DNA from: a virus
Strand: one strand, 5' to 3'
DNA: 14,202 nucleotides
Virus genome (UHGV): UHGV-0304018
Under the pieces are notes generated by a model. That model made no database searches. It was not told the DNA's origin and saw only the letters and a program-made list of their open reading frames with translations. The translations under genes were made by a program, and so were the position numbers. Positions 1 to 14,202 of the stretch are shown here, piece by piece; positions within the stretch are counted from its first letter, which is position 1, and each line of letters opens with the position of its first letter.

Positions 1-46
1 GTAATTTCCACATTGACCTCCGGATCTGTTTCTCCCCCTATTTATA

Positions 47-75
47 ATCTTATCATACTGTCAACAGAATGTCAA
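47..75 (-). promoter_or_regulatory. Candidate leftward promoter inside the conserved 110-nt repeat block (copy A)
   Basis: On the minus strand: TTGACA (rc of 70..75), 17-nt spacer, TAAGAT (rc of 47..52). It points at a GTG start at position 11 whose ORF runs off the left window edge. Confidence 0.35.
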
Positions 76-382
76 TGAGAATTATTATCATTCAGGTGTG
101 CTATAGGTGCAAGCAAGTCCACAGCAAAGGGGTAAGCATTATTAATGGCCCCTACCGTGTCAAAACCAGAATCACTTATAGCATTTATGCAATAAGATTG
201 TCAATGGCCCACAATGGATGGAGAGCACTTTTTGTTAAAACTTTGGAGGGTGTTAAACTCAAACCTCATGAGAGGCCCTACAACGCGATTTAAGCATCAG
301 GTAATGCAATTCACTAGGGAGTATGGTTTATCTCGCTGTAGGCGCTAAAATCGCGCTTATTTTCGATTTATGAGTGTCATAT

Positions 383-404
383 TACGTGCATGCACACGCG
401 CGCG
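383..404. repeat. 22-nt strictly alternating purine-pyrimidine tract (tacgtgcatgcacacgcgcgcg) in repeat copy A
   Basis: Read directly. Copy B has an analogous 19-nt tract at the equivalent place with a different sequence. Confidence 0.8.
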
Positions 405-506
405 GAATCCCTCGCTTAAACGGTCCGGATTGGAAACAGAAGTCTCTTATCCGGACTCCACATTATAAAGCTCCGTGCTATAGCACTACGCTCCCCACAC
501 ACAATT

Positions 507-541
507 GGGTGACGTGTCATGTATGGAATACATTGTCACCC
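507..541. promoter_or_regulatory. Large imperfect palindrome GGGTGAC-N21-GTCACCC with nested ATGTAT/ATACAT arms; candidate operator or RNA hairpin (copy A)
   Basis: Arms are exact reverse complements; identical in both repeat copies and flanked by CACACA runs. Confidence 0.5.
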
Positions 542-606
542 CACACAGGCCGACGTAGTCGGTTTAGCTGTATAGCTAAAGTCACAGAGTGACCCACACA
601 CATATT

Positions 607-645
607 GCCTAAAGAGTCGCTAATGCTCTTTAGGCTTTCATTTGT
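607..645 (+). terminator. Rho-independent terminator, rightward (copy A)
   Basis: Perfect 10-bp stem gcctaaagag / ctctttaggc with a 9-nt loop, followed by tttcatttg. Confidence 0.6.
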
Positions 646-698
646 GGGTTAAGCTTTTCCCTTAGAAAACCTTCCCCACTCTCTGATCCCTCCCCATT

Positions 699-721
699 CC
701 CCCCTGGGGGGTTAGGGGGGG
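699..721. repeat. Homopolymer cluster C6-T-G6-TTA-G7
   Basis: Read directly: cccccctggggggttaggggggg, just left of the iteron array. Confidence 0.9.
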
Positions 722-763
722 ATCTATTGTGTGGTCTATTACTTTATCTATTAGTGTCAAATA

Positions 764-949
764 TTTTTACAGGTAGTAGTAAAAGATTTTGACAGGTAGT
801 AGTAAAAATATTTTACAGGTATGGGCCGTATTATTGGTGGGGTAGTAAAATATTTTGACAGGTTAGGGGCTGTGTATCATGGGTGCAATGACTGCAAAAC
901 AGGAGAGTATGACTGTATAAACACACAGGTGTGAAAATTCTTTACAGGT
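764..949 (+). repeat. Array of five iteron-like direct repeats, core TTTKACAGGT; candidate origin of replication or protein-binding array
   Basis: Cores at 765-774, 787-796, 811-820, 854-863 and 940-949; the first two units also share acaggtagtagtaaaa; spacing of the first three is 22-24 bp. No ORF on either strand. Confidence 0.6.
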
Positions 950-1141
950 TAGTGCGGTAATATTTACCGGGGTGTGGTGCCTGAGTATGACTGAAAGGGG
1001 TTGTAGGAAATCCCAACAGGTGGGGGAGTGATTGCATCTGATTTTTTACTCTGTATTAGCCGTCAATTGACCTATTTTGACTAGCAAACCTCTCTCCTCT
1101 CTCTTTGCTTTGATTTTCTCTCATGTGTGGGAAATATGCAG

Positions 1142-1167
1142 ATCAACACCCGTTGATTTTATCAACA
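1142..1167. promoter_or_regulatory. Overlapping palindromes ATCAA-N6-TTGAT-TTT-ATCAA including a DnaA-box-like TTATCAACA
   Basis: Read directly; TTATCAACA (1159..1167) is one mismatch from the TTATCCACA consensus. Confidence 0.3.
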
Positions 1168-1726
1168 GTTATGTTGACCGGGTGTCATAACTATGGCCCC
1201 TGGGGCAGTCCATCCTTCCCTCACACAGGACAATGAATACATAAAGAACATGAAAGACTGTTCACACCAACACGCCGATAAATTGCCTGAAGAGGCTTGC
1301 ATGGGGTTATTGTTGTGTGGGTAATGGTGATCATGCTAACAGATTATGTTAATCAGATGTAAATTCCGGTTTTGTGGTCTACAGAGAACAAACTATACTG
1401 GTTAAATGATCAGGGGAATGACTACAAAACAATCAAAAATGTGGGATATAGCCATCTATACGTCTAATGTGCTGTGTGGGGTGTTAGTGCATGCTTACAT
1501 GTAAGTCATTGATTTGAAGGGTTGGGAAAATTGCATTTAACATAATAGATCTTATCTACACTAATAAAGCGCACTACAAAATCTGATTTAAAAATCATGA
1601 TCAGTGGGCACAGAATTTACGTACAGCCACCTGAATAAATAATGTGCACAACATACAGCAAAGCTTAAGAATTAACATAATAGCAACGTGGTCGGCAGTG
1701 GTGTGATATTTGAGAATTGTTAGAAG

Positions 1727-1763
1727 AAAAAAGGGAGGTGGGGGAGCGCCTGCCTGGCACCTC
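1727..1763 (-). terminator. Possible weak leftward terminator in the gene-free region
   Basis: 6-bp stem GAGGTG / CACCTC with a 17-nt loop, followed on the minus strand by CC and T6. No matching promoter was found. Confidence 0.3.
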
Positions 1764-2302
1764 AGACGAACATCTGACGGGTATTAATACCGCTAATGGA
1801 TATTTCTGACACCCACACCCAAGACCGCTTTCAGCACACAGCCATACACCGCACAGGATGCAATTGTGATAACAAAAAATGGGGGTGTAATAGGGTAGGT
1901 CATCTTTCATCAAAATCACTTCTACGACGTTCCCAGAGTGATAACAAGAAAACAGGCCTCTAAGATTATCTGTGCCTCGTTTTTAGCTTTTTGTGTGGTT
2001 ACCAGGTGAATAGGAAATGTTAAAAACTGTTCATTTTATGCACAAACTAGTCAGGGTGATACTACAAATTGAGGTGTAAGAAATCCAGCTGCAGATAATC
2101 TTGCAGCCAGATTTTGCAGTTTTTGAGGGTATGTTAAATTTGACAAAAATAGAGAAAAGGCCAATTGAGCTAAGCTATTGATTTTATTAGTATTGCAAAA
2201 AAGGGTTACATCCTCTCTCTTACACTGTCAACAATGCCCAAAACCATTAAATCAATAAATAGGCATTAAATACCCATTAAATAGGGGTTAAATAGGGGAT
2301 AA

Positions 2303-2328
2303 ATAAAAAAGGGGCCGTGATGGCCCCC
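2303..2328 (-). terminator. Rho-independent terminator ending the leftward membrane-protein gene
   Basis: Perfect hairpin ggggcc-gtgat-ggcccc (2311..2327) followed on the minus strand by T6, 17 nt after the stop codon at 2345. Confidence 0.75.
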
Positions 2329-2344
2329 TGGTGGGTTGGTGTGG

Positions 2345-3055
2345 TTATTTCATAGGAGAGGTTTCTACGGCTTCACCGTACATCTCATTAAGCATCTTCA
2401 ATGCTTCCATATCAACATTCAGGAGTGTTCCCTCAGTGATCCAGGCGTTATTCTGCCATGCTTCGTGAACGAGTTCACCGTTATACCATCGAGCCGTTCG
2501 TGTAGTTTCTATGCTTACACCGTCCATGTGGCGCATCTGTAGCCAACGATCATTGCCTTTTACATCCTTGCACCATACCGTCAGAACATCTTTATTTTTC
2601 CCAGTAGGTGCCCCACTGTTAACCGCCACTTTAATCTGGTTGCAAGCACCTTTTTCTGCATGATTCCACAGCCAGGCGTGAATCTGGTATTTATCTGTGC
2701 ATCCTATATCTTTAGAGAGATCGCAATCTAGCACACCATAAATATATTTATATGCTTTTACCCTGTCCTCCCATGTAAGATCGGAGACGTTAACCACTTC
2801 TTCATGCTGTGAGTTCACCTCTTCCACATTTGCAGCTGTATTTCCTGTGGGAAGAGAGAAGTAGGCCCAGCCAATAAGCCCCGCGACTATAACCAGACTT
2901 GTTATGACTGCTCCAGGGTGCTCTTTATATTGTGCATGCAGCTTTTTAATATCTTTCCCTACACTCATCACTAGTAATAGAGGCAAAGCAATTACTAACA
3001 CCCATGGACCAAATACAATGCAAGCTAATAGTGTAACAATAATTCCCTTAAACAT
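2345..3055 (-). CDS. Membrane protein, 236 aa: two N-terminal TM helices plus a ~165-aa extracytoplasmic domain with four Cys; function unknown
   Basis: ORF track; hydrophobic segments at about aa 5-30 and 50-68; SD AAGGGG 7 nt before the ATG; own terminator. The superinfection-exclusion or defence role is inference only. Confidence 0.75.
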   Translation of the reverse strand: MFKGIIVTLLACIVFGPWVLVIALPLLLVMSVGKDIKKLHAQYKEHPGAVITSLVIVAGLIGWAYFSLPTGNTAANVEEVNSQHEEVVNVSDLTWEDRVKAYKYIYGVLDCDLSKDIGCTDKYQIHAWLWNHAEKGACNQIKVAVNSGAPTGKNKDVLTVWCKDVKGNDRWLQMRHMDGVSIETTRTARWYNGELVHEAWQNNAWITEGTLLNVDMEALKMLNEMYGEAVETSPMK

Positions 3056-3062
3056 AGTGGTA

Positions 3063-3083
3063 CCCCTTTGCGAGAAGTTGATT
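3063..3083 (-). promoter_or_regulatory. Duplicated leader element AAAUCAACUUCUCGCAAA (minus-strand sense) immediately 5' of the ribosome-binding site of 2345..3055
   Basis: 18 nt identical to the element at 3583..3603; a 12-nt core gcgagaagttga recurs at 8086..8097. Confidence 0.5.
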
Positions 3084-3112
3084 TAAGTTAATAACCTGGT
3101 GGACTGTTCACA

Positions 3113-3373
3113 CTATTTATTCTTCTTAAATCTCCCATCCTCCTTTCTTTCGATATTGTGGTAGTCGGCATAGGCTTTTAGCCTTCTGTGCACGGTGGCG
3201 ATCCCCACACCGAAGGTTTTAGCGATGACCTGTCGTGGCGTTCCCTCCTCAACCATCTTGTACATCTGTTCCGCTACATCCATTTGTGCGGCTATCTCCA
3301 TTTGCTTTGCCTTAGCTTTAATTTCAGCTATCAGCTCTTCCCTCAGTCTCTTAATATCTTTAGTTCCCGTCAT
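3113..3373 (-). CDS. Small DNA-binding protein, 86 aa: N-terminal charged helix plus a C-terminal HTH resembling the DNA-binding domain of Hin/Gin-type serine recombinases; no catalytic domain
   Basis: ORF track; GTPRQVIAKTFGVGIATVHRRLKAY resembles the Hin C-terminal HTH as recalled from memory, not searched; start codon overlaps the stop of an upstream small ORF (ATGA). Confidence 0.7.
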   Translation of the reverse strand: MTGTKDIKRLREELIAEIKAKAKQMEIAAQMDVAEQMYKMVEEGTPRQVIAKTFGVGIATVHRRLKAYADYHNIERKEDGRFKKNK

Positions 3374-3450
3374 AAACTCCGCTCAATGATGATTAATACA
3401 AAATCTAAGACTGCCAGACCTATTAAAAATACTTTGCCTCCTTTGCCCAT
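3370..3450 (-). CDS. Possible 26-aa hydrophobic peptide (MGKGGKVFLIGLAVLDFVLIIIERSL), translationally coupled to the HTH gene
   Basis: Hand translation; below the ORF-track length cut-off; single predicted TM segment; stop overlaps the downstream ATG. Confidence 0.25.
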   Translation of the reverse strand: MGKGGKVFLIGLAVLDFVLIIIERSL

Positions 3451-3451
3451 C

Positions 3452-3574
3452 TCACACCTCCACACACAGAGCTAACATCAGGGCTAAAACTCCAACCACC
3501 TCAATTGCCTTAACAATGTGTGGGTGATGAAACCTGGCCTTTTGCCATGCGCTGGCACTGTTCTTGATACCCAT
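3452..3574 (-). CDS. Possible 40-aa peptide with hydrophobic C-terminus (MGIKNSASAWQKARFHHPHIVKAIEVVGVLALMLALCVEV)
   Basis: Hand translation; SD AAGGTGA 5 nt before the ATG; the duplicated leader element lies immediately upstream. Confidence 0.3.
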   Translation of the reverse strand: MGIKNSASAWQKARFHHPHIVKAIEVVGVLALMLALCVEV

Positions 3575-3582
3575 AACTATCA

Positions 3583-3603
3583 CCTTTTGCGAGAAGTTGA
3601 TTT
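3583..3603 (-). promoter_or_regulatory. Second copy of the duplicated leader element, immediately 5' of the ribosome-binding site of the 40-aa ORF
   Basis: Read directly; identical 18-nt core to 3063..3083. Confidence 0.5.
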
Positions 3604-3638
3604 GTTTGCTCGGTTGGGTGCTTTCACTGGCTATGCCA

Positions 3639-3655
3639 GGTGACTTTCAGTCACC
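3639..3655. promoter_or_regulatory. Palindrome GGTGAC-tttca-GTCACC; same half-site as the repeat palindromes
   Basis: Read directly; sits in the divergent control region between the leftward module and the rightward capsid promoter. Confidence 0.4.
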
Positions 3656-3744
3656 CCTTTGGGTGTCTCTATCAATGCTACCCTTCCTTGATTCGAACTA
3701 TAACCGGGTAAATCCCCGGAAAACATTGATATTGATCAAAAGAT

Positions 3745-3775
3745 ATCTATCACGAATGAAAAAGTTATGATAGAT
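3745..3775. promoter_or_regulatory. Inverted repeat ATCTATCA-N15-TGATAGAT; candidate operator
   Basis: Read directly; about 90 bp upstream of the consensus capsid promoter; a further ttgatagagg half-site follows near 3800. Confidence 0.4.
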
Positions 3776-3861
3776 GCGATGAGATGACGTATTGATGGGA
3801 TTGATAGAGGTCTGAAAATACCGTTACTACGCTAATTATTAGAATTTATATAATAAGGGGG

Positions 3862-3890
3862 TTGACAATTTGAGAGAATACTGATATAAT
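3862..3890 (+). promoter_or_regulatory. Perfect consensus sigma70 promoter: TTGACA, 17-nt spacer, TATAAT
   Basis: Read directly: -35 at 3862..3867, -10 at 3885..3890, with an AT-rich upstream stretch. Confidence 0.8.
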
Positions 3891-3896
3891 ATACAT

Positions 3897-4370
3897 ATAC
3901 CGTAAATCAATGGTGAAAGTGATTTGCCGTATTTTCCTCCAAAGTAAAGGCGACCAGGTAGCGGTGCCGCCTTATAAATAACACTACCCTGATCATCGTT
4001 GAGTGGTCGATTAATTCTCCTATTGGGCTAGTTATCCACACAGTTTTCTTTTGCGGGTTTTCTGTGTGGGTAGCTATCCCGAAAGGTATTTCCCCGCTGA
4101 TGTGACCGCAGCCTGAACTGATCCGGGGGAGTGCCTTTCGTGATAGTGCTCTCTAGTAACCGTAACCCATACTGTGAACTATCATCCGACTGTTGTCGGT
4201 TTCCCCATGTGGAATAGCCCCCGCTTGGCTACGGTGCGGGGCTATCTCCCTCTCCTTGTATCAATTTCCCTTTAGATTTCCGGCATAACTTTTCGGCCCG
4301 AGCCTGTCGTGGTTTGAGAGGTTATACCGGAACTCTTTGAGGGGAGTTAATTTAAATCGCAGGTGATCAA
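3897..4370 (+). other. ~470-nt untranslated, hairpin-rich leader between the consensus promoter and the first capsid gene; candidate cis-regulatory RNA
   Basis: No plausible ORF; several strong stems, e.g. ccacacag-N18-ctgtgtgg (4036..4069), ccgac-tgtt-gtcgg (4187..4200), tagcccccgc-N11-gcggggcta, aaggcg-N16-cgcctt. Folds were judged by eye. Confidence 0.5.
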
Positions 4371-4706
4371 ATGAGAGATATGACTATCCGCACACGCGGA
4401 CACATCATTTCATACGCCGCAGATGAGCAATTTTCTATTCGCGACGTTGAAATTAAAAACAAAGTTAAGGCTGAGATTCCGGCTGGCACTGTTGTTGTGG
4501 TGACTGAGGAAGGCGAGGTTGAAACATTCGTTAAAGCAACGCACACCGGTAAAACTCCGCTGCTGGTTGTAGAACGTGCTGAGGTTGGTGACGCTTTTAT
4601 CGTTGTTGCGAACAAAGGTTGCTACATCAATCCGGCCTACGTGGATAAAGAAGGCTTAGCCGCTGTTATTGCTGCCAGCAATGGCGATTTGCGTGTTGCA
4701 CAATAA
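4371..4706 (+). CDS. Putative head decoration protein, 111 aa
   Basis: ORF track; size and position immediately upstream of the major capsid gene, as in lambda D-E; AGGTGA site before the ATG; codon usage typical of a highly expressed gene. Family assignment is by context only. Confidence 0.8.
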   Translation: MRDMTIRTRGHIISYAADEQFSIRDVEIKNKVKAEIPAGTVVVVTEEGEVETFVKATHTGKTPLLVVERAEVGDAFIVVANKGCYINPAYVDKEGLAAVIAASNGDLRVAQ

Positions 4707-4711
4707 GGAGG

Positions 4712-5764
4712 TTGAAGATGGCTAAGAAAGAATTTGAAGTTCGCGATCTGTGTGGTCTGATTAAAGACATCCCGCTGGATAACCAGATTATTTCAGCAAT
4801 GGATATCTTCAACACTACAGCCCTGTGCAATACCTTTAAATTTGAATATGACAAAGTTCGCCAGGTGAAACAAACCGCTTTCGGTCAGTATCCGCGCTAC
4901 GGTGAACAGATGGCTACCATTACCGCAGATGAGCGTGAAACGGGCACGGGTGATATGGCATTCACTGCCGCATCAAGTGCTATTTATCCTTCTGACTGGC
5001 AAGGTATCCGTGTTCCGGGCAAAGATTCCGAAGAGAATTTAGAGTCTGTAACCGCTCGTCGTGTTATTCAACTGGGTGAAGGACTACGCGCGACCCATGA
5101 AGAAGCACGCCAGCTTGCTCTCTTTGAGAACAAAATTATCCTTACCAAGGGTAAAGAACTGAATGTGTGCGAACTGCTGGGCGCACAGCAAACCACTTCA
5201 GAAGTGGATCTAGCTCAAGATATCCTTAAACAGCTGCAGGACCTGGTTGCACTGAGCAAGGTTAAACAGCGTGGTGTTGTTCGCGCTCTGCGTGGTTTCA
5301 CCCTGTTCTGCCGTGCTGAGCTCTTTGCTGCAATTCAGACTGATGAACTGCTCCGTAAAGTGCTGTTGTTCGGCAATCAGAATATTACCGACAAAGGTCT
5401 GATGTTCCCTGAGGATATTCTGCCGGGCTTCCCGACCTTCCGCATTCCGGGCTTAGCTCTGCGTGTGGTGCAAATGGATAGTCTGCCAGAGAATACTGCT
5501 TATCTGGTCCCACAGTTCCAGCCGCATGCGTTAGGCGATATGGTGGGCGTTTATACTCAATTTTTCGGCCCTTGCGCTCGCAACCTGAAGCTTGCAAACG
5601 GCGCTGCACGTGAAGCTTTCATGTATATGGAAGAGTCCAGAGGTAAACGAGAAATCTTCATTGAATCCTCTTATGCTTTCATGAACATGATGCCTGAGGT
5701 TGTGGTTAAAGTGAGTGTTAGTAACTCCGCCGCCGCTGCTCTGGCAAAAGCCAAGGCTAAATAA
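4712..5764 (+). CDS. Putative major capsid protein, 350 aa
   Basis: ORF track; strong AGGAGG site 6 nt before the ATG; size and position after the decoration-like gene; followed by a terminator. Fold not verified. Confidence 0.85.
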   Translation: MKMAKKEFEVRDLCGLIKDIPLDNQIISAMDIFNTTALCNTFKFEYDKVRQVKQTAFGQYPRYGEQMATITADERETGTGDMAFTAASSAIYPSDWQGIRVPGKDSEENLESVTARRVIQLGEGLRATHEEARQLALFENKIILTKGKELNVCELLGAQQTTSEVDLAQDILKQLQDLVALSKVKQRGVVRALRGFTLFCRAELFAAIQTDELLRKVLLFGNQNITDKGLMFPEDILPGFPTFRIPGLALRVVQMDSLPENTAYLVPQFQPHALGDMVGVYTQFFGPCARNLKLANGAAREAFMYMEESRGKREIFIESSYAFMNMMPEVVVKVSVSNSAAAALAKAKAK

Positions 5765-5795
5765 GGTCCTTCTTCGAAGGCCAAATAAAAGCAAA

Positions 5796-5846
5796 GGGAA
5801 GAGGTGAGAGATCGGGGATAGGTCTTTCCCTCTTCCCTTTTTTATT
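5796..5846 (+). terminator. Rho-independent terminator after the capsid gene
   Basis: 9-bp stem gggaagagg / cctcttccc with a 24-nt loop, followed by ttttttatt. Confidence 0.55.
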
Positions 5847-5877
5847 ATCCCCGTCTTAAGTTTTTGAGGTGTCTTTT

Positions 5878-6129
5878 ATGAAAATTGTTTTATACGGCGA
5901 CCGTGACGACGTGCCTTTTGATATTATCCATATCGATGACGAGGATCTGCCGGAATTCCTGCGTATCTCCACATTTGCCGCCTGCTATGACGTTAGCCGC
6001 CAGGCTATGCATAAATACCGTGAATATAATAAATGCACCTGGGCCGAGACTTTCGAACATTTTATTGCACGCAAACAGGCACAGGACCGCAAAAAAGCCC
6101 TGAATGCCCATAATCGTTTTGCAAAATAA
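5878..6129 (+). CDS. Hypothetical small protein, 83 aa, with a possible HTH (STFAACYDVSRQAMHKY)
   Basis: ORF track ORF 5869..6129, start re-placed at the ATG at 5878 with GAGG 8 nt upstream. Confidence 0.65.
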   Translation: MKIVLYGDRDDVPFDIIHIDDEDLPEFLRISTFAACYDVSRQAMHKYREYNKCTWAETFEHFIARKQAQDRKKALNAHNRFAK

Positions 6130-6234
6130 CGCTCTCGGGAAGAGCTATAAGCGATTCTAACGAATAACTGCCCTGTATTTTCTGCAGATTTTAAGCAGGG
6201 CAACGAAAAGATTCATTTTTGAGGCATGTTCAAT

Positions 6235-7457: not shown

Positions 7458-7470
7458 TAGCCCCTCTCTC
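7449..7470. terminator. Possible bidirectional terminator between convergent genes
   Basis: Hairpin ggggc-ctgata-gcccc overlapping the stop of 6999..7457, with T-rich sequence on both strands. Confidence 0.4.
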
Positions 7471-7475
7471 TGAGA

Positions 7476-7625
7476 TTAGATAAACTGGGATAATTCCCGC
7501 ACAAGCTTTATCTCCTGCCGTTCCTTCTGCTTCTCTTCTAACCATTTCCGGCCTTCTTCAGTCTTGAGAAACTTGCGAGCGTGAATCTTGCGGTTATTTC
7601 GCTTAATGGCATTGGCATTCTTCAT
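7476..7625 (-). CDS. Small very basic protein, 49 aa (MKNANAIKRNNRKIHARKFLKTEEGRKWLEEKQKERQEIKLVRELSQFI)
   Basis: Hand translation; below the ORF-track cut-off; SD AAGGGG before the ATG; candidate promoter just upstream; its start context is nearly identical to that of the membrane-protein gene. Confidence 0.5.
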   Translation of the reverse strand: MKNANAIKRNNRKIHARKFLKTEEGRKWLEEKQKERQEIKLVRELSQFI

Positions 7626-7659
7626 AGTGTCACCCCTTCTTATGACCTGCTACGCCTAC

Positions 7660-7688
7660 ATTATAGCCAAAATCCTGAATTCAGACAA
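7660..7688 (-). promoter_or_regulatory. Candidate leftward promoter: TTGTCT, 17-nt spacer, TATAAT
   Basis: -10 is rc of 7660..7665 and -35 is rc of 7683..7688; about 27 nt upstream of the start of the 49-aa ORF. Confidence 0.5.
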
Positions 7689-8085
7689 TAGAACTCTTTT
7701 TGATGCCGTGTTGGTGGTAAGGAGAAACACTAGCATCATTTAGGGGTTTTCAGGTTTTCATGTAGATCAGCTTTATCAGGTACCTGCTTATATTCCGGTG
7801 CGGTGAAACCGTGTGGGCATCTCTTAGTTTTGGCTTATCACTTATTGCCGGGTAAGAGAGCAGAACCACCAACGTTTGCCTGTTTATCACCTTGGTTAGG
7901 GTGAGGCCGCATCAAGCCCAGTGCTCTACAAGATACTCCAGATCATAGACGCTTATTTTCTCTTAGAGGTCGCGTTAACCTCTGGGATCTGTTTCCACTG
8001 ATGAATATAAAACAAACGGTATGAATGATCAAACGTGAACAGAAAGAGAGTTGACTTTCTCTCTGCAGATGATCACACTTGCCAG

Positions 8086-8097
8086 GCGAGAAGTTGA
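8086..8097. repeat. Third copy of the 12-nt core gcgagaagttga
   Basis: Read directly; lies 3' of the tape-measure gene, overlapping a possible rightward terminator hairpin (agcccc-N19-ggggct followed by ttttatt, 8097..8130). Confidence 0.5.
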
Positions 8098-8142
8098 GCC
8101 CCAAAGGATGACAAATCCCGAGGGGCTTTTATTATCAACCAG

Positions 8143-10284
8143 TTAGAAAAGCTGATTAGCTTCCTGTGTGGCTTTCCAATCCAGCTGATCGCTGACTTCC
8201 TTCTGGATCACCCTGGCAATTCCCCCCTCATCAATGGTTATCTCCCACTTGCCGGAGATCTCACCCTGCGGAACTACACTGATTTGAGTCGGCTGATAGC
8301 CTCCATTCTGAATAGCAATACCACCCGTTGGTGTTGGTCTGGTAATGTAGCGTCCTGCGTCCAGACGATAATCAAGGCCAAGGAAGCTAGAAGCACTATT
8401 AACCATACTGGTTAACCATTCAGGATGTTTAGCTCCTTCCTGCCGCTGATTATCAGGATTCTGCCAGTAGGAATCTAAGCTATTTGCAATGTCAAATCCT
8501 GTCAAAACAATCCCTGCCGGACCTGCAAATCTTCCTCCAAGTCTGCCTGCTTTCCCGATAAAGCCGCCTCTACCTGGTCTGCCTTTGCCTGCTGTGCCTC
8601 CAGTGCTGATATCACCAACACCGACTAAAGCACTAAGCGCCGCTTTAAGTTTCCACAGCATGGAAATAAGGCCGCCAACCATGCCAGCAATGCTTGTTGC
8701 AACCTTCAGGCCTAACAGGGCGGTCACAACCTGGCCAATCTTCTCGCCTGCATCCTGTGCGGTCCAGCCTAACGTCTCACCAATGCCTTTGGCGATCTTC
8801 TTAGTCCACCACCAAGCCCAGTTGACCCAAAAATAAATTTCATGCATTGCCTCGCCTAACATAACTCCGAGAGATTTGGCATCTTCACCTGAGCTACTGA
8901 AAATTGAGGATAAATCTTCAAAGATATAAATAAGGGATTCTGACAGGGTAATGACGCCATCCGCAGGATCCACAACACCCATAAAGGATTGCTTTAGTTT
9001 AAAAAACTGGTTGCTCATTCTCTGCAGTGCCACTTCAGGCTGTTGCATAGATTTAGCAAAAGCGTCAGTTTCTTTTGCAGCACCCCAGATTTTCACTAGA
9101 GAGGGAAGAAGCTTGTCCAGGGTGATTTTGCCATCTGCCATGGCTTTATCGAATTCCTGGGCACTCTTGATGATTCCGGCATCAATAGCGGCCTGTTGAA
9201 AATCCTGTTGTGAGCCTGCAAAGGCTTCTGACAGCTGGCCACGCAGCTCTTCCGCAGCTACTCTTCCTTTTGAAGCCATTTGTTGGACCGCAACAAGCGC
9301 CCTGTTCTGTTGCTCGCCAGTAGCACCCACTGAGCGGCCTTTAATCGCCATAGCCTCAAAAAGAGCCTGCTTATCAGATTCCTTCATGGTGGGAGTAGCG
9401 GCAGCAAAACGCATATAGCCACCCTCCATCTCACGCTGATCCATCCCGTAGGTGTTGGCTGTGTTCTCGATAAAAGCCATCTGCTGGTCAGTCTTGGCTT
9501 TATCATCCTTGTTCTGAGCAAGCAAACCATAATAGGCTGAGTTATGGTCAGATTGAGCGCTCATAGCACCACTAACAGCTCTCTGAATACCCCATCCTGC
9601 AGCGGTCAGGCCAATGGCTATCTTGCCTAAAGCACTGTTAAGCTTGCCGATATTGTTATGCACCTTGCTCGCACCTGCTGCCAGTTTATCTAGCTTGCTT
9701 TGAAAGGTGGTGGCATCTCTAGAGGCCATCTTCATTTCAGCTCTGAGTCGGGCCATTTTCTGATTATAGGTCTGCAGGTTAATAGCCCCTTTAGCATAAT
9801 CAGCATTAACTCTCTGGATTCTGCTTTGGAACTGAGCAACCAGGGATCCATCAAACATGCTGCTGATTCGTGCACTGTTGGCCCCTACACGTGCTTTTCT
9901 GTGCTGAACATCTCCAACACTACGATCTAACAGTTTTTGTTGTCTGGCGGCTTCTCTGGCTTGTTGTTGGTAGAACTTGCGCATAGAGTTAAGTTCGGCA
10001 TTGTTGCCCCCGGTCAGACGGCTGACAGCCTGAGCACGTTGTTTCTTCTGTGCTTCCTGTTGTTTCCTCTGAGCTCTGGCTATCTGCTCTTCCACCTTAG
10101 CGCGTGTTCTTTGTGTTCTGAGCACAGCCTGATTAGATTTAAAATCAGCTTTAGCTATATCGTCGGTAGCTTTCTTCCAGGATTTTTTATAATCCTCAAG
10201 CCGTTTAACTTCTTTTCGCCAGGAGGATTTATCAGAGTCCCAGTAAATAACGTTTGTTAGTCTGGCTACTTCCTTCATTGCCAT
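8143..10284 (-). CDS. Tail tape measure protein, 713 aa
   Basis: ORF track; charged coiled-coil-like N-terminal third, central region with the conserved core recalled for tape-measure proteins (GRVAAEELRGQLSEAF), and hydrophobic and Gly-rich segments near the C-terminus; SD GAGG before the ATG. Confidence 0.85.
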   Translation of the reverse strand: MAMKEVARLTNVIYWDSDKSSWRKEVKRLEDYKKSWKKATDDIAKADFKSNQAVLRTQRTRAKVEEQIARAQRKQQEAQKKQRAQAVSRLTGGNNAELNSMRKFYQQQAREAARQQKLLDRSVGDVQHRKARVGANSARISSMFDGSLVAQFQSRIQRVNADYAKGAINLQTYNQKMARLRAEMKMASRDATTFQSKLDKLAAGASKVHNNIGKLNSALGKIAIGLTAAGWGIQRAVSGAMSAQSDHNSAYYGLLAQNKDDKAKTDQQMAFIENTANTYGMDQREMEGGYMRFAAATPTMKESDKQALFEAMAIKGRSVGATGEQQNRALVAVQQMASKGRVAAEELRGQLSEAFAGSQQDFQQAAIDAGIIKSAQEFDKAMADGKITLDKLLPSLVKIWGAAKETDAFAKSMQQPEVALQRMSNQFFKLKQSFMGVVDPADGVITLSESLIYIFEDLSSIFSSSGEDAKSLGVMLGEAMHEIYFWVNWAWWWTKKIAKGIGETLGWTAQDAGEKIGQVVTALLGLKVATSIAGMVGGLISMLWKLKAALSALVGVGDISTGGTAGKGRPGRGGFIGKAGRLGGRFAGPAGIVLTGFDIANSLDSYWQNPDNQRQEGAKHPEWLTSMVNSASSFLGLDYRLDAGRYITRPTPTGGIAIQNGGYQPTQISVVPQGEISGKWEITIDEGGIARVIQKEVSDQLDWKATQEANQLF

Positions 10285-10285
10285 T

Positions 10286-10522
10286 TTATACCTCGCCCTG
10301 TCTTAAAGATTTTGATAATGAAATAGCCCTTTTCAGGGCCTCTTTATCAATATTATATTTCTCCGCCAGCTCTTCGATTGAGAGGCCTTCTGTGTGGGAG
10401 CTACTTTTAATAATGGTGGACCCCTCTTTCGCTGCCTCTGGCAGGTGACCTATTGTCACCCCTTCGGGCGTGTCTTCGGAGTCCTTAACCAGTTTTTGAT
10501 AAATCTTTTCGTAGATATTCAT
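10286..10522 (-). CDS. Hypothetical protein, 78 aa, immediately upstream of the tape-measure gene
   Basis: ORF track; SD AAGG 8 nt before the ATG; stop is 1 nt from the tape-measure ATG. A tail-assembly-chaperone role is inferred from position only. Confidence 0.7.
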   Translation of the reverse strand: MNIYEKIYQKLVKDSEDTPEGVTIGHLPEAAKEGSTIIKSSSHTEGLSIEELAEKYNIDKEALKRAISLSKSLRQGEV

Positions 10523-10523
10523 A

Positions 10524-10913
10524 TCATTTGCCTTTGCGTCTTAGTGGACACTTATCGCCAATAGTCCACACAAAAATATAATGGCGCTTGCTTTCAGCTT
10601 TAGGATTTAATAATTCTTTATGCAAATATCCGGCTGACAGCATTTTATCGACCAGGTTTTTCACTCTTTGCCCTTCCTCAAATGTTTGTGCTTTGAAATA
10701 GAGATTTGGAAAGTTTTGGCCTGTATACTTTCCATCTTCATTTAAGCGGGTGCATACCCAACGACATAAATCATCGTCGTTAAGATCACTAACGTGTGGT
10801 TTATCATCGCTGCTAAATAACGCCTGTTTAAAATGGGAGTAACTAAACTCCCCTTCTTCCAGGAAATCACCCTCTTCGAATTCAACTATCATTTCTTCAA
10901 TATTCATAGGCAT
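10524..10913 (-). CDS. Hypothetical protein, 129 aa, acidic N-terminus; possible tail assembly chaperone by position
   Basis: ORF track; compact gene spacing. Confidence 0.75.
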   Translation of the reverse strand: MPMNIEEMIVEFEEGDFLEEGEFSYSHFKQALFSSDDKPHVSDLNDDDLCRWVCTRLNEDGKYTGQNFPNLYFKAQTFEEGQRVKNLVDKMLSAGYLHKELLNPKAESKRHYIFVWTIGDKCPLRRKGK

Positions 10914-10967
10914 ATCCTCTCATTGATGCACCCCCCAAAAAATGGGGAGTGCTTATTTATCAATAGC

Positions 10968-11411
10968 TTAATCAAGATTAACCAGTTTGAGAGGTTTGAC
11001 AGCTTGGAGCATGGTCTGCATCATTCCTACGCTTATTTCAAAGAGATCTGCCATGTTCTGAAGGCTTGCCCCTTCTGCCTCAATCATTGATTTGGATAAG
11101 GCAGCAATCACAAAGCCATCCTGGGCGCTGTTCCACATGCTGATAAGAGGATCATCACCGTGTTGGCGCATAAGGTCCTGAATCATCCACAGCCTACATG
11201 CCATAACCACCAAATCGACATAGAAAACATCACCATTAGCGGACTTGCATTCAGCAAAAGCGTGGTGTCTGTGTTTTAAGAAGTGCTCTTTGTCACGGGT
11301 AAATGCCAGGGTGTTGGTAAACTTGCCATCTAAAAGATCCTGGCGAACTTTTGAATCTTCAGCGTCGAAAGCTTTGATTACCTGGGATAATAATTTAGCG
11401 ATTTGAGACAT
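10968..11411 (-). CDS. Hypothetical protein, 147 aa
   Basis: ORF track; AGGA 7 nt before the ATG. Confidence 0.75.
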   Translation of the reverse strand: MSQIAKLLSQVIKAFDAEDSKVRQDLLDGKFTNTLAFTRDKEHFLKHRHHAFAECKSANGDVFYVDLVVMACRLWMIQDLMRQHGDDPLISMWNSAQDGFVIAALSKSMIEAEGASLQNMADLFEISVGMMQTMLQAVKPLKLVNLD

Positions 11412-11484
11412 TTGGAATTCCTTAAATTAGAGCCCCGGAAGGGGTTAAAGTGAGTCGAAAATAAATAAATCGAAGAGATAAAAC

Positions 11485-11973
11485 TTAGGCTTTCTGGGCC
11501 ATTGCTTTCTGGACTTTATTTCTATGGCGGCGGTAGATGAATATAAATTCGCGATAAGCACGACTACCGGGCTTAGGCAAACGTTGATTAAGCTCCTTAC
11601 GTGGCAGGATTTCACTCAACAAGCCCCAGATATGAAAGCAGGTTACTTTTAATTCTTTTGCTATCTCTTCAATATTCATCCCACAATTCCACATTAAAAG
11701 AGATTTGCGGCGGCGATCTTCGAAGACATTTCTATCTCTATCTATTTCGTTGTAGACACTGAGGGGAACTCGACACCGTGGATTCCAGGACTCATTATAT
11801 AGTTTTTGGACTTTCTCAAGTTTAACGCCTGTATATTCCGCCACGAATTCAGGGGTAAAGCCCTCGACTAATAAGTGTTTAGCCTGTCGTGTTGGTTGAT
11901 CATCACTGGGGAGATATTTCTGCAGTGCTACCAGTTTTTCAAATTGGGAATCAGAAAGATCAGATTTGAACAT
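11485..11973 (-). CDS. DNA-binding protein, 162 aa, with a sigma70 region-4-like HTH; candidate late-gene activator or small-terminase-like protein
   Basis: ORF track; RRKSLLMWNCGMNIEEIAKELKVT follows the region-4 pattern (R-x-hydrophobic-L-x4-G-x3-EEIA-x2-L-x-V); GGAGA 7 nt before the ATG. Confidence 0.75.
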   Translation of the reverse strand: MFKSDLSDSQFEKLVALQKYLPSDDQPTRQAKHLLVEGFTPEFVAEYTGVKLEKVQKLYNESWNPRCRVPLSVYNEIDRDRNVFEDRRRKSLLMWNCGMNIEEIAKELKVTCFHIWGLLSEILPRKELNQRLPKPGSRAYREFIFIYRRHRNKVQKAMAQKA

Positions 11974-12071
11974 GATTAATTCTCCGAACGTTTAAAAGAT
12001 CAGGGCAATCAATCTAGTTCTAGTGCTTAGTTTGTTTATTTAGTTTGTTTGGGGATAACAGGGGATATTAA

Positions 12072-12218
12072 TTAATAAGGGATGTCAGAATCATTTTCTT
12101 CATCTGCTGGATCTTCAGCTAACCAACCACAATATTCTTCCCAATATGAAAAATGTTGTGATAGTTCATCTTCAAAATATTTTTCCTTTTCCAGGTAATA
12201 ATCAAGATCGCCATACAT
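12072..12218 (-). CDS. Small strongly acidic protein, 48 aa (MYGDLDYYLEKEKYFEDELSQHFSYWEEYCGWLAEDPADEENDSDIPY); candidate DNA mimic or anti-defence protein
   Basis: Hand translation; below the ORF-track cut-off; AGGA 8 nt before the ATG; 16 acidic versus 2 basic residues. Confidence 0.5.
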   Translation of the reverse strand: MYGDLDYYLEKEKYFEDELSQHFSYWEEYCGWLAEDPADEENDSDIPY

Positions 12219-12257
12219 TTTAAATTTCCTTTAGAATACTGTAAAAAATAAGAATGT

Positions 12258-13121
12258 TTATTTTGTAATGGTTAATTCGCCTTTTACAAGCTTGCAGTTG
12301 TTCCACAATCTTTCTTTCGGGGCATCATAGCCATGACTAATATAATCGATGATAATTGTTTTACCTCTTTTAGCTACATGTTGAGCCACCTTAAGGGCCT
12401 GTTCTGTTAAATGCCAATAATCATCTTCTTTCCAGATTCTACCCTCAACGGTGCCTTTAATTTTATCCATCACCTCCGGCCCGTAAAATGCATCTCGCAA
12501 TTCAGAGAGTTTAATGCTCTTCCGATCCTTAAATGTTGCCTGAATCCCTTTGTATTTGGCGTTCATCTCATCACTTGTCAGAATCGGATAACCGTGCTCA
12601 TCTTTCTCACGTTTGCCAGCGTCTCTAAAGCGCTCTCTGCGCTCGTTCTTAGGTTGGGTAGGCAATTGCACCACCTCGGCCTTTTTAGCTTGCTGTGTGG
12701 GTTGTTTTGGGGCTTCCTGTTGATTATCGGGGGCCTCTTTACTAGATCCCACACTGTCGGAGGTTTTAATACCCTGCTCATCACACATCTTGCCAAGCTG
12801 ATCAGGGGTAATTAGCAGTTTGTAATGATTAGATTTGCCTTTACTTTTAACTATTGAAATAAGCCCGGCATTTTCTAGAGATTTAATCGAGTTAATAACT
12901 GTCGGTCTTGAAACATCATAATCGTCTGCTAATCTCTGTTCAGAGATAAATATTTCACAACCTGCAGCATTAAAACTTGCCATCTCACCGTAAATTGTCA
13001 TTTCCAACAAGTTTAAGTGAAATCTTTCTTTATTGGTTGTAGTTTTTGCAATCGGATTTTTAAAAATGTATTTGATGAAACGTTTAAAAAGGGGAGTAAA
13101 ATTTTCCCCGTAATTACTTGC
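12258..13121 (-). CDS. Winged-helix DNA-binding protein, 287 aa (N-terminal wHTH, low-complexity linker, C-terminal domain); replication-initiator-like or antirepressor-like
   Basis: ORF track ORF 12258..13181, start re-placed at the internal ATG at 13121 (GGGGGA site 4-5 nt upstream), which removes the overlap with 13138..13353; wHTH-like segment ISEQRLADDYDVSRPTVINSIKSLENAGLISIV. Confidence 0.75.
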   Translation of the reverse strand, partial: ASNYGENFTPLFKRFIKYIFKNPIAKTTTNKERFHLNLLEMTIYGEMASFNAAGCEIFISEQRLADDYDVSRPTVINSIKSLENAGLISIVKSKGKSNHYKLLITPDQLGKMCDEQGIKTSDSVGSSKEAPDNQQEAPKQPTQQAKKAEVVQLPTQPKNERRERFRDAGKREKDEHGYPILTSDEMNAKYKGIQATFKDRKSIKLSELRDAFYGPEVMDKIKGTVEGRIWKEDDYWHLTEQALKVAQHVAKRGKTIIIDYISHGYDAPKERLWNNCKLVKGELTITK

Positions 13122-13137
13122 CATAATTCCCCCATAA

Positions 13138-13353
13138 TTATTTATTAATGTTATTGGTGTATTTAGCCAGTTCCCGCTCAAGGCGAATGCAATTTAGTTT
13201 TAAAATTGCTTCTTCAATGTGTGGATATTCTCCTTTATGTTTACGAATGAATGCATAAACGGAAGTTTTGCGGAAGTTCCCCTTAAGTACGTTCTCGACG
13301 ATTTCGTCAGTAGTCCAGTTTACCAGCTGGCTGATCGGTCCGGTTTTAGCCAT
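13138..13353 (-). CDS. Small hypothetical protein, 71 aa; possible regulator
   Basis: ORF track; perfect AGGAGG site 8 nt before the ATG. Confidence 0.75.
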   Translation of the reverse strand: MAKTGPISQLVNWTTDEIVENVLKGNFRKTSVYAFIRKHKGEYPHIEEAILKLNCIRLERELAKYTNNINK

Positions 13354-13486
13354 AGTATAAGCCTCCTGTTAGCTCACTAACCTGTGCGATATATGATTAA
13401 AAAGAAACGGGAACTTAAGACAAGCCCCCGCCAGTCTACTAAAGGAAATTCACTATGATGAGAATTACCCTATGCTTTATATTTTA

Positions 13487-13636
13487 TCAGACATTCGTCA
13501 AATTGTCAACAATCTTTTTGTATTTATCTATCATTTTTTCTTCAAGATTGTCGATTGCAGTTACTCCGGCTATGTAGGCAACACCGCACCACAGTACAGC
13601 CAGGTTGATGATCGCTATTGCATCAGTAATTTCCAC
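13487..13636 (-). CDS. Possible small single-TM protein, 49 aa, GTG start; its start lies inside the conserved 110-nt repeat block
   Basis: Hand translation (VEITDAIAIINLAVLWCGVAYIAGVTAIDNLEEKMIDKYKKIVDNLTNV); GGAGG 5 nt before the GTG; competes with a probably spurious plus-strand ORF 13472..13672. Confidence 0.35.
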   Translation of the reverse strand: MEITDAIAIINLAVLWCGVAYIAGVTAIDNLEEKMIDKYKKIVDNLTNV

Positions 13637-13671
13637 ATTGACCTCCGGATCTGTTTCTCCCCCTATTTATA

Positions 13672-13700
13672 ATCTTATCATATTGTCAACCAATTGTCAA
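13672..13700 (-). promoter_or_regulatory. Candidate leftward promoter inside the conserved 110-nt repeat block (copy B)
   Basis: Same TTGACA / 17-nt / TAAGAT arrangement as copy A, upstream of the small ORF 13487..13636, which has a GGAGG ribosome-binding site. Confidence 0.35.
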
Positions 13701-13914
13701 TGAGAATTATTATCATTTAGGTGTGCTATAGGTGCCATAGCCTGCACAGCAGACACAAGCAAGCCCACAAGGGAGGGCACTTTTTGCCTTAAGCGCTCTA
13801 AAATCGATTCTAACGCGATTTAGAGGTCAGGTAATGCAATTGCACTACTCACACTAGTTAATGCAGCCAGAAGGCCATTTAGGGGGCTTATTTTCGATTT
13901 ATGAGTGTATCCTT

Positions 13915-13933
13915 TATATATGTGTGCGTGCAC
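13915..13933. repeat. 19-nt alternating purine-pyrimidine tract (tatatatgtgtgcgtgcac) in repeat copy B
   Basis: Read directly; followed by the palindrome cccgcgcggg. Confidence 0.8.
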
Positions 13934-14089
13934 CCGCGCGGGAGACTCTTTGCTGCCTCCTTCCGGCGCTGGCAAGCTTTCGGCAGCGGTCCACATGTGG
14001 GCCTCATGCTGACGCATTCGCCGGACCACACACAGACCCGAAGGGCTTAGCCATGGGCTAAGGTGCCGTAGGCACTCCCACACACAATT

Positions 14090-14124
14090 GGGTGACGTGT
14101 CATGTATGGAATACATTGTCACCC
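14090..14124. promoter_or_regulatory. Same GGGTGAC-N21-GTCACCC palindrome (copy B)
   Basis: Identical to 507..541. Confidence 0.5.
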
Positions 14125-14137
14125 CCACACACATATT

Positions 14138-14176
14138 GCCTAAAGAGTCGCTAATGCTCTTTAGGCTTTCATTTGT
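14138..14176 (+). terminator. Rho-independent terminator, rightward (copy B)
   Basis: Identical 10-bp stem, 9-nt loop and T-rich tail as 607..645. Confidence 0.6.
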
Positions 14177-14202
14177 GGGTTAAGCTTTTCCCTTAGAAAA
14201 CC

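What the first reader, a model, noticed from the sequence alone, without database searches (positions are those of the whole stretch)
1..14202. Window is bounded by long mosaic direct repeats, giving a ~13.6-kb unit
Positions 1..672 and 13626..14202 are clearly homologous but not identical: a 110-nt block at ~95% identity, then conserved blocks (a 35-nt palindrome, a 10-bp-stem terminator) alternating with unrelated sequence and a ~95-nt indel. Non-identity rules out a circular-assembly overlap or identical terminal redundancy. The pattern fits either two related elements in tandem at one site, with the window covering one period, or a diverged paralogous regulatory module bracketing the gene set.
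Basis: seen in the sequence. Interest (0 to 1): 0.7.

Follow-up and report, generated by a model that had tools for sequence, protein, structure and literature searches.

The report
Circular plasmid wrap-around, two alleles
The window is slightly more than one turn of a 13.5-kb circular, phage-like E. coli plasmid, and its two end "repeats" are one non-coding control region captured in two natural allelic forms built from shuffled hairpin cassettes.

Summary
Window 1-671 and 13626-14202 are collinear, with exact or near-exact blocks alternating with unrelated sequence. The interpretation needs changing. The window is about 1.04 turns of a 13.5-13.6 kb circular Rep/iteron plasmid of E. coli that carries a capsid gene and tail genes. 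It has no integrase, tRNA or chromosomal flank. Nine finished relatives are plasmids with one copy of this locus per unit. The two ends are two alleles of that single locus. The B allele plus body (593-14123, 13,531 bp) is 100% identical to an independent assembly. The closure junction of the A allele (13625 joined to 1) occurs in another. So the window mixes two co-occurring variants, or reads across a heterodimer; sequence alone cannot separate these.

The locus lies between the divergent rep-operon promoter and the iterons. It is a hypervariable array: a conserved promoter block, alternative ~95-nt modules, then 37-47-nt hairpin cassettes separated by CCCACACA and closed by an intrinsic terminator. 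Cassette number and order differ among relatives, and stems show compensatory changes. It is probably a structured non-coding RNA, but its function was not shown. I found no published description of the plasmid family.

The parts
1..110 (.). Conserved block, copy A (copy B is 13626-13735). It holds the first 11 nt of the 49-aa gene (GTG start on the - strand), a strong - strand promoter (TTGACA-17-TAAGAT with TG, 75..47), a weaker divergent + strand promoter (61-88), repeated TTGTCAA operator-like motifs, and the conserved leader TTAGGTGTGCTATAGGTGC.
111..377 (+). Variable part 1, allele A (allele B is 13736-13908, about 95 nt shorter). It is mosaic, with two shared islands (282-316 and 355-377), and ends in a terminator-like hairpin (338-360 in A, 13872-13889 in B) whose stem sequence differs between the alleles.
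397..492 (+). Module P2 (allele A), a ~95-nt hairpin-rich block. Allele B has the unrelated module P1 at 13935-14025 in the same place.
493..602 (+). Cassette array, allele A: separator CCCCACACACA (493-503), cassette Y (504-540, nested palindrome), separator (539-547), cassette Z (548-592, three short hairpins), separator CCCACACACA (593-602).
14026..14133 (+). Cassette array, allele B: separator (14026-14034), cassette X (14035-14076, three short hairpins), separator (14077-14086), cassette Y (14087-14123), separator (14124-14133).
607..643 (+). Intrinsic-terminator-like hairpin GCCTAAAGAG..CTCTTTAGGC followed by TTTCATTT. The second copy is at 14138-14174. It closes the array in nearly all relatives.
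696..723 (+). G/C-run hairpin (CCCCCCTGGGGGG TTA GGGGGGG) between the array and the iterons.
758..964 (.). Iterons: five copies of a ~22-bp unit (AAATATTTTNACAGGTAGTAGTAAAA), the putative origin. The iteron sequence differs among relatives.
   Evidence: (families D3, D4)
672..2344 (.). The remainder of a ~2.3-kb stretch with no convincing ORF. No gene is annotated here in any of nine finished relatives.
13487..13636 (-). 49-aa gene, first gene of the rep operon. Its start lies inside repeat copy B. The exact protein occurs in 1,657 blocks of the public assembly collection, mostly on 10-20 kb contigs.
12258..13124 (-). Replication initiator-like winged-HTH protein (288 aa from the ATG).
8143..10284 (-). 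Tape measure protein (713 aa). Three further ORFs of this - strand operon lie at 10286-11411.
4371..7457 (+). Structural operon: 111-aa ORF, major head protein (4712-5764), 86-aa ORF, Dit-like tail protein (6226-7002), tail-completion/Neck1-like protein (6999-7457). A perfect consensus promoter lies at 3862-3890.
593..14123 (.). One complete B-genotype unit (13,531 bp), 100% identical to ENA ERZ1753694 NODE_350. The A-genotype unit would be 1-13625 (13,625 bp).

Best explanation
Shown: the window is a linear read-out that overshoots one turn of a ~13.5-kb circular Rep/iteron plasmid of E. coli carrying a capsid gene and tail genes. Positions 1-671 and 13626-14202 are therefore the same locus visited twice. 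The two visits returned two natural alleles of that locus: A = long 5' part, P2, Y, Z; B = short 5' part, P1, X, Y. Inferred (my commitment, about 0.6 against a heterodimer): the two alleles came from two co-occurring plasmid variants that share an essentially identical backbone, and the assembler joined arm A, the shared body, arm B and the start of the body into one contig. Shown: the locus is the non-coding control region between the divergent rep-operon promoter and the iteron origin. Across the family it is a cassette array of interchangeable modules separated by the short repeat CCCACACA and closed by an intrinsic terminator. Inferred: recombination at the separators, and exchange between co-resident plasmids, shuffles cassette number and order. 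Inferred (about 0.4): the + strand is transcribed from the divergent promoter into structured non-coding RNA whose hairpin cassettes act as a specificity determinant (copy-control, immunity or incompatibility, or helper recognition).
For: Circular unit: nine finished E. coli records of 13,238-13,697 bp (plus one 39.6-kb homotrimer) match the whole window. All are plasmids and none is chromosomal. Each has one copy of the locus per unit. The homology starts at base 1 and ends at base 14202, as expected for overshoot of a circle.

Two real alleles on one backbone: window 593-14202 is 100% identical to ERZ1753694 NODE_350, a perfect tandem with period 13,531. Contig ERZ506091 NODE_1640 equals window 11315-13625 joined directly to window 1-337, with 4 mismatches, all far from the junction. 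ERZ506993 NODE-631 carries the B arm at 100%. The rest of the A arm recurs in other contigs: 393-548 at 100% and 494-760 at 98.9%.

Cassette array: 25 or more loci show the orders P1; P1,X; P1,X,Y; P1,Y,X; P1,Y,Z; P1,X,Y,Z; P2,Y; P2,Y,Z; P2,X'; P2,X',Z'; and others. CCACACA occurs 22 times against 1.6 expected, with 0 of 200 shuffles reaching that count, and 14-20 times in every relative.

Structure: in five X/Z-type cassettes, 6 of 11 stem pairs carry changes on both sides and 98% of cells are paired, with 0 of 500 shuffles as high. Folding z-scores are -5.6 and -4.1 on the + strand. Read directly from the sequence, G-T pairs in several stems are tolerated only on the + strand. The terminators are on the + strand.
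Against: I could not find the source contig, so there are no reads or coverage to separate a mixed population from a physical heterodimer. The identical stretches at the two ends (57 nt before the first mismatch, 79 nt at the end) do not fit one k-mer size, so a simple de Bruijn bubble-walk is not demonstrated. None of about 16 other single-unit contigs shows non-identical overlaps; they show exact overlaps of 30, 55, 77 or 127 nt, or none. Transcription of the array is not shown. No convincing promoter lies directly upstream of it, the minus strand folds about as well, and palindromes are equally compatible with a DNA-level role. Rfam has no match.
Confidence: 0.6

Rival explanations
1. A real physical heteromultimer. 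One molecule carries an A unit and a B unit in tandem, formed by homologous recombination between two co-resident variants or as a replication or packaging concatemer. The window is a read or contig spanning just over one period of it.
For: Multimeric records exist in the family: a 39.6-kb homotrimer and a perfect tandem contig of about two units. No multimer-resolution recombinase was detected. The end positions do not fit any k-mer size, as expected for a long-read-derived sequence. The assembly graph of a heterodimer is identical to that of a mixture.
Against: The known multimeric records are homomultimers, at 99.5-100% identity between units. Two plasmids with the same Rep and iterons should be incompatible. 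A circular 27-kb heterodimer would normally be assembled to full length. There is no direct evidence of linkage.
Confidence: 0.3
2. The source is a genuine 14.2-kb circular plasmid in which the ~600-nt control region is tandemly duplicated, with allele B followed directly by allele A. The 14202|1 junction would then be real.
For: 14.2 kb is within the size range of some relatives (14,043 and 14,275-nt contigs). Nothing in the sequence forbids it.
Against: The repeats sit exactly at the two termini of the window, which is improbable for an arbitrarily linearised circle. The junction GAAAACC|GTAATTTCC has no microhomology. No relative among 25 or more loci has two copies per unit.
Confidence: 0.05
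3. A linear phage-like genome with diverged direct terminal repeats.
For: Capsid and tail genes are present, and the repeats are terminal.
Against: Relatives are circular records without terminal repeats. Rep plus iterons indicate plasmid replication. Terminal repeats made by replication or packaging are identical, whereas these differ by whole modules. No terminase or portal was detected.
Confidence: 0.03
4. Two related elements integrated in tandem at a chromosomal site, or a paralogous regulatory module bracketing a gene set.
For: Only the non-identity of the repeats.
Against: No integrase, att site or tRNA. There are 0 chromosomal places among 5,426 complete E. coli genomes. The locus is present once per unit in relatives.
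Confidence: 0.02

Closest known systems
Overshoot or terminal overlap of a circular replicon in a linear contig, with plasmid heteroplasmy or multimers (for example ColE1-type dimers)
   Same: The homology runs from the first to the last base. The period equals the size of finished circular relatives. Homomultimer records exist in the family.
   Different: The overlap is not identical. The two ends are two distinct natural alleles that differ by whole modules, so two templates (or a heterodimer) are required.
Bacterial interspersed mosaic elements (BIMEs: REP palindromes combined with short conserved linkers). This comparison is from my own knowledge.
   Same: Non-coding mosaics of short palindromic units joined by short conserved motifs, with copy number and order varying between loci or strains.
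   Different: There is no sequence similarity to REP. The array is confined to one locus of one plasmid family. Here the linker is a direct repeat, CCCACACA, and the array is bounded by a promoter block and a terminator.
Multi-hairpin regulatory RNAs with variable repeat number (CsrB/RsmZ type) and RNA immunity determinants of P1/P7 (c4) and P4 (CI RNA). This comparison is from my own knowledge.
   Same: Structured non-coding RNA made of several stem-loops with single-stranded linkers. In P1/P7/P4, allelic RNA sequence sets immunity specificity next to replication and regulatory genes.
   Different: No Rfam family matches, including C4. GGA loops are not a common feature. No complementary target has been demonstrated. 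Transcription was not shown.
Capsid-forming PICIs and other phage satellites (P4-like, PICI, PLE, PICMI)
   Same: A small element (~13.5 kb) with its own major capsid gene but an incomplete virion gene set, which suggests dependence on a helper.
   Different: The element is extrachromosomal with Rep and iterons and has no integrase. It carries tail genes (tape measure, Dit-like, tail completion). No portal, protease or terminase was detected. Helper dependence is untested. A 2025 review states that only one plasmid has been shown to be a phage satellite, and that one is a satellite of an inovirus (PMC12282955).

Membership tests
Wrap-around (overshoot) of a circular replicon | Direct, collinear homology that begins at the first base and ends at the last base of the contig | tested here: met
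   1-671 against 13626-14202
Wrap-around (overshoot) of a circular replicon | The period equals the size of finished circular relatives, which carry the locus once | tested here: met
   Period 13,531 or 13,625 against records of 13,238-13,697 bp; one copy per unit
Wrap-around (overshoot) of a circular replicon | The two ends are identical (single template) | tested here: not met
   Only about half of the overlap aligns and whole modules differ. Two templates or a heterodimer are needed.
Wrap-around (overshoot) of a circular replicon | Each end closes the circle on its own | tested here: met
   B: 100% identity to a 13,531-bp tandem unit. A: the junction 13625|1 is present in ERZ506091 NODE_1640.
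Integrated tandem elements or prophage with att sites | Integrase or recombinase gene | tested here: not met
   Pfam, PHROG and NCBIfam scans of 18 ORFs found none; the only related hit is an 86-aa HTH_7 protein
Integrated tandem elements or prophage with att sites | tRNA/tmRNA or chromosomal flank | tested here: not met
   No tRNA or tmRNA; all 10 places in complete E. coli genomes are on plasmids
Iteron-type plasmids | Initiator protein plus an adjacent array of direct repeats; autonomous circular records | tested here: met
   Rep-like winged-HTH protein (phrog_270 at 4.7e-12; HTH_36 and HTH_11); five ~22-bp repeats at 758-964; circular plasmid records. Origin function itself was not tested.
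Known phage satellite families (P4-like, PICI, cfPICI, PLE, PICMI) | Chromosomal integration with an integrase, and the family-specific core genes | tested here: not met
   No integrase, primase, terminase small subunit, portal or protease was detected. The element is a plasmid.
Known phage satellite families (P4-like, PICI, cfPICI, PLE, PICMI) | Helper-dependent packaging and transfer | not testable with these tools
   Only indirect hints: an incomplete virion gene set, and a tape measure protein 25.7% identical to those of rV5-like phages
Phage direct terminal repeats | Identical repeats at the fixed ends of a linear genome | tested here: not met
   The repeats differ by modules; relatives are circular
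CRISPR or ToxI-type repeat arrays | Repeats of 23 nt or more that are near-identical, with associated cas or toxin genes | tested here: not met
   The separators are 8-11 nt. No cas or toxN-like domain was found and there is no Rfam match.
C4/CI antisense immunity RNAs (Rfam) | Match to the covariance model | tested here: not met
   cmscan of the whole window at E<=1 returned 0 matches

The most novel reading that the evidence does not exclude
The end repeats expose a previously undescribed kind of locus: a recombination-shuffled array of structure-conserved, sequence-variable triple-hairpin cassettes separated by CCCACACA. In this reading it is transcribed as a modular non-coding RNA and serves as the specificity determinant (immunity or incompatibility, copy control or helper recognition) of an undescribed, widespread family of plasmid-borne phage satellites of E. 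coli that encode their own capsid and tail proteins. The two alleles on one backbone would then record a very recent allele switch at this hotspot.
Probability: 0.25. Interest if true: 0.75.

Novelty: new variant of a known kind. Interest (0 to 1): 0.45.

Why it matters
The bounding repeat itself is a bookkeeping effect: a circle read past its start. Its non-identity is informative, because it shows two alleles of one control region on an otherwise identical 13-kb backbone. That marks the region as a recombination hotspot. The region turns out to be a modular hairpin-cassette array with compensatory stem changes and a strongly over-represented 8-mer, and neither feature matches any catalogued RNA family. 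The carrier is a common but apparently undescribed E. coli plasmid family. Its 49-aa marker protein occurs in 1,657 blocks of public assemblies, and it encodes a capsid protein, a tape measure protein and other tail proteins but no packaging machinery. If it is a plasmid-borne phage satellite, it would add to a class for which a 2025 review cites a single proven case.

Tried and rejected
- Rfam at E<=1 returned no match.
- tRNA/tmRNA search found none.
- Whole-window megablast against phages gave no match. Distant blastn of the variable region against phages gave none. In E. coli genomes that region hits only the same plasmid family.
- IMG/VR scans with the terminator block and with the capsid protein found nothing.
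- GTDB representative genomes were scanned by DNA pattern and by capsid alignment. Nothing was found.
- Finding the source contig failed. The metagenome pattern scan returned only three other contigs. Exact-protein look-ups of ORFs inside the A and B arms are not on record. Look-ups with the tape measure protein and Rep collapse 23 near-identical places into one.
- De Bruijn bubble-walk test: the identical stretches at the ends are 57 and 79 nt, so no single k fits. This was left unresolved.
- DnaA box, CRP, IHF and Xer/dif-like readings of CCCACACA and cassette Y were considered by eye and dropped for poor matches.
- CRISPR and type III toxin-antitoxin repeat arrays were rejected because the separators are short and there are no partner genes.
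- I looked for a sigma-70 promoter directly upstream of the cassette array. None is consistent across the three leader variants.
- Seven literature searches found no description of the family.


Full report
OBSERVATION. Window 1-671 and 13626-14202 are collinear direct repeats made of conserved blocks:
- 110 nt at 95.5%;
- about 35 nt at 89%;
- 23 nt at 100%;
- 55 nt at 98%, of which 49 nt are exact; this block holds a nested palindrome;
- 79 nt at 100%; this block holds an 11-pair hairpin followed by TTTCATTT.
Between the blocks the sequence cannot be aligned. The net length difference is 94 nt, so the spacing changes from 13,625 to 13,531. The homology begins at base 1 and ends at the last base of the window.

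WHAT THE UNIT IS. Megablast finds the whole window, in 12-15 pieces at 91-97% identity, in E. coli records of 13,238-13,697 bp. All of these are annotated as circular plasmids. None of the 10 places in 5,426 complete genomes is chromosomal. One 39.6-kb record is a homotrimer, with 99.5-99.7% identity between units.

Gene content:
- On the - strand: a 49-aa ORF, a 71-aa ORF, a Rep-like winged-HTH initiator, four small ORFs and a 713-aa tape measure protein.
- On the + strand: a 111-aa ORF, a major head protein (phrog_29), a Dit-like tail protein and a tail-completion-like protein.
- Also an 86-aa HTH_7 protein and a 236-aa membrane-anchored protein.

No integrase, terminase, portal or protease domain was detected, and there is no tRNA. 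About 2.3 kb (13637 through the wrap to 2344) has no credible ORF and is unannotated in every finished relative. It contains five ~22-bp iterons at 758-964.

The 49-aa protein occurs in 1,657 blocks of the public assembly collection, mostly on 10-20 kb contigs. The capsid protein has only 29 cluster representatives at E<1e-3 among 1.84 billion proteins and no tblastn hit in 50,697 phage records. The tape measure protein is 25.7% identical to those of rV5-like myophages. I found no paper describing the family. A 2025 review states that only one plasmid has been shown to be a phage satellite (PMC12282955).

WHY THE ENDS ARE REPEATS. Finished relatives carry the locus once per unit, so the second copy in the window is the circle read past its start. 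The two copies are two natural alleles.
- Window 593-14202 is 100% identical to ENA ERZ1753694 NODE_350, a perfect tandem with period 13,531. Arm B plus the body is therefore a complete genotype.
- Contig ERZ506091 NODE_1640 equals window 11315-13625 joined directly to window 1-337. It has four mismatches, all between 11369 and 11911. The A-type circle closure therefore exists independently on a near-identical backbone.
- ERZ506993 NODE-631 carries arm B at 100%.
- The other parts of arm A recur elsewhere: 393-548 at 100% and 494-760 at 98.9%.

The window is thus arm A (1-592), the shared body (593-13625), arm B (13626-14123) and 79 nt of the body again. This could be a co-assembly of two variants or a contig across a true heterodimer, and the sequence cannot decide. 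The assembly graph is the same in both cases. The identical stretches at the ends (57 and 79 nt) fit no single k. About 16 other single-unit contigs show only exact k-mer overlaps or none. I favour a mixed template (about 0.6) over a heterodimer (about 0.3). A 14.2-kb circle with a tandem duplication is unlikely because the repeats are exactly terminal.

WHAT THE LOCUS IS. Alignments of 25 or more loci show a fixed frame with interchangeable contents, in this order:
- A conserved ~110-nt block. It holds the start of the 49-aa gene, a strong - strand promoter (TTGACA-17-TAAGAT with TG, at 75..47 and 13700..13672) and a weaker divergent + strand promoter.
- A mosaic part 1. It ends in a terminator-like hairpin whose stem differs between alleles while its T-rich tail is conserved.
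- One of two unrelated ~95-nt modules, P1 or P2.
- Between none and three (or more) cassettes of 37-47 nt, each flanked by CCCACACA(CA).
- An intrinsic-terminator-like hairpin at 607-643, then a G/C hairpin, then the iterons.

The cassettes are X and Z (three consecutive 5-7-bp hairpins each), Y (a nested palindrome) and a longer cassette W. The orders observed include P1; P1,X; P1,X,Y (arm B); P1,Y,X; P1,Y,Z; P1,X,Y,Z; P2,Y; P2,Y,Z (arm A); P2,X'; and P2,X',Z'.

CCACACA is the commonest 7-mer of the element. It occurs 22 times in the window against 1.6 expected, with 0 of 200 shuffles as high, and 14-20 times in every relative. It appears in both orientations and mostly in non-coding DNA.

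EVIDENCE ON STRUCTURE. In five alignable X/Z-type cassettes, 6 of 11 stem pairs of hairpins 2 and 3 carry changes on both sides. 98% of cells are paired, with 0 of 500 shuffles as high, and the slid controls collapse to 18-55% paired. Both alleles fold far better than shuffles on the + strand, with z-scores of -5.6 and -4.1. The - strand folds similarly, as palindromes must.

Three things favour a + strand RNA:
- G-T pairs in several stems would be A-C mismatches on the other strand (read directly from the sequence).
- The terminators are oriented on the + strand.
- Two further triple-hairpin cassettes, at 3621-3670 and 10426-10475, have the same hairpin order when read on the - strand (by eye). 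That is the annotated gene strand at the second site, and it would be the transcribed strand at the first site if the 86-aa gene's transcript starts upstream of it. The promoter there was not mapped.

Transcription and function were not shown. My working model is a structured non-coding RNA, or RNAs, divergent from the rep operon and acting as a specificity determinant. Short-repeat and inter-plasmid recombination would generate the alleles. A DNA-level role, for example protein binding at CCCACACA or hairpin extrusion near the origin, is not excluded.

COMPARISON WITH KNOWN SYSTEMS AND VERDICT.
- As a repeat, this is an ordinary circular wrap-around, made unusual only by capturing two alleles.
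- It is not an integrated tandem element, a terminal redundancy, a CRISPR array or a ToxI-type array, and it matches no Rfam family.
- The locus resembles BIME-like mosaics and multi-hairpin or immunity RNAs in its architecture, but it meets none of their defining features.
- The element resembles capsid-forming satellites in gene content, but it is a plasmid and lacks their core genes.
- Interest is moderate. The headline finding is largely explained, but it points to an uncatalogued hypervariable locus in an apparently undescribed and common plasmid family.

Noticed in passing
window 3862-3890 (+); 13509..13481 (-): A perfect sigma-70 consensus promoter (TTGACA-17-TATAAT with TG) lies about 480 nt upstream of the capsid operon, followed by a long hairpin-rich leader. 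A look-alike promoter (11 of 12, with TG) lies inside the 3' end of the 49-aa gene. Together the two form inverted repeat I1, which suggests a shared operator.
   Followed up: partly
whole window, e.g. 495, 541, 594, 728, 1124, 1314, 1473, 1992, 3460, 3517, 4036, 4063: CCACACA is about 14-fold over-represented (22 against 1.6 expected) and is the commonest 7-mer of the unit. It is conserved in number in all relatives and forms inverted pairs at 3460/3517 and 4036/4063. It could be a protein-binding site or an RNA pairing motif. Its role is unexplained.
   Followed up: partly
window 3621-3670 and 10426-10475: Two further triple-hairpin cassettes lie outside the array, 78% identical with compensatory changes in the first stem. 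The second lies inside the 78-aa ORF between the 129-aa ORF (10524-10913) and the tape measure gene. That ORF is 61 or 78 aa long in relatives.
   Followed up: partly
window 672-2344: About 1.7 kb beyond the iterons has no ORF and no annotation in any relative, yet is 90-96% conserved across the family. Its function is unknown.
   Followed up: no
L001 (NZ_CP043822.1); L014/L023/L025 (ERZ1753694 NODE_350): Homomultimeric records exist: a 39.6-kb trimer (99.5-99.7% between units) and a perfect tandem of about two units. These are either real multimers or assembly artefacts. No multimer-resolution gene was detected.
   Followed up: partly
L013 (GCA_043168025.1, DAYHIJ010000020.1, 79-kb contig): Here the element is embedded in a larger replicon. 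Its tape measure gene is truncated next to a beta-lactamase gene, a resolvase and a Tn3-family transposase. ABC-transporter and pentapeptide-repeat genes lie on the other side.
   Followed up: no
window 8341-8915 (tape measure gene) and 12258-13181 (rep): The middle of the tape measure gene does not align among relatives. The rep region falls to 77-84% identity while its neighbours stay at 93-98%. The iteron sequences also differ between relatives. This is a mosaic, recombining backbone.
   Followed up: partly
window 4712-5764; 8143-10284: The capsid protein belongs to a very small family (29 cluster representatives among 1.84 billion) and has no hit in 50,697 phage genomes. The best phage matches of the tape measure protein are rV5-like myophages of 136-138 kb, about ten times the unit length. 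That ratio may be coincidence.
   Followed up: partly
L011 (ERZ506993 NODE-631, contig 15,489 nt, only 1,910 nt held): This is another metagenome contig longer than one unit (13,531 + 1,958 nt) that carries arm B at 100%. It may be a second case of a contig running past one turn through a variable region, but the rest of the contig could not be retrieved.
   Followed up: no
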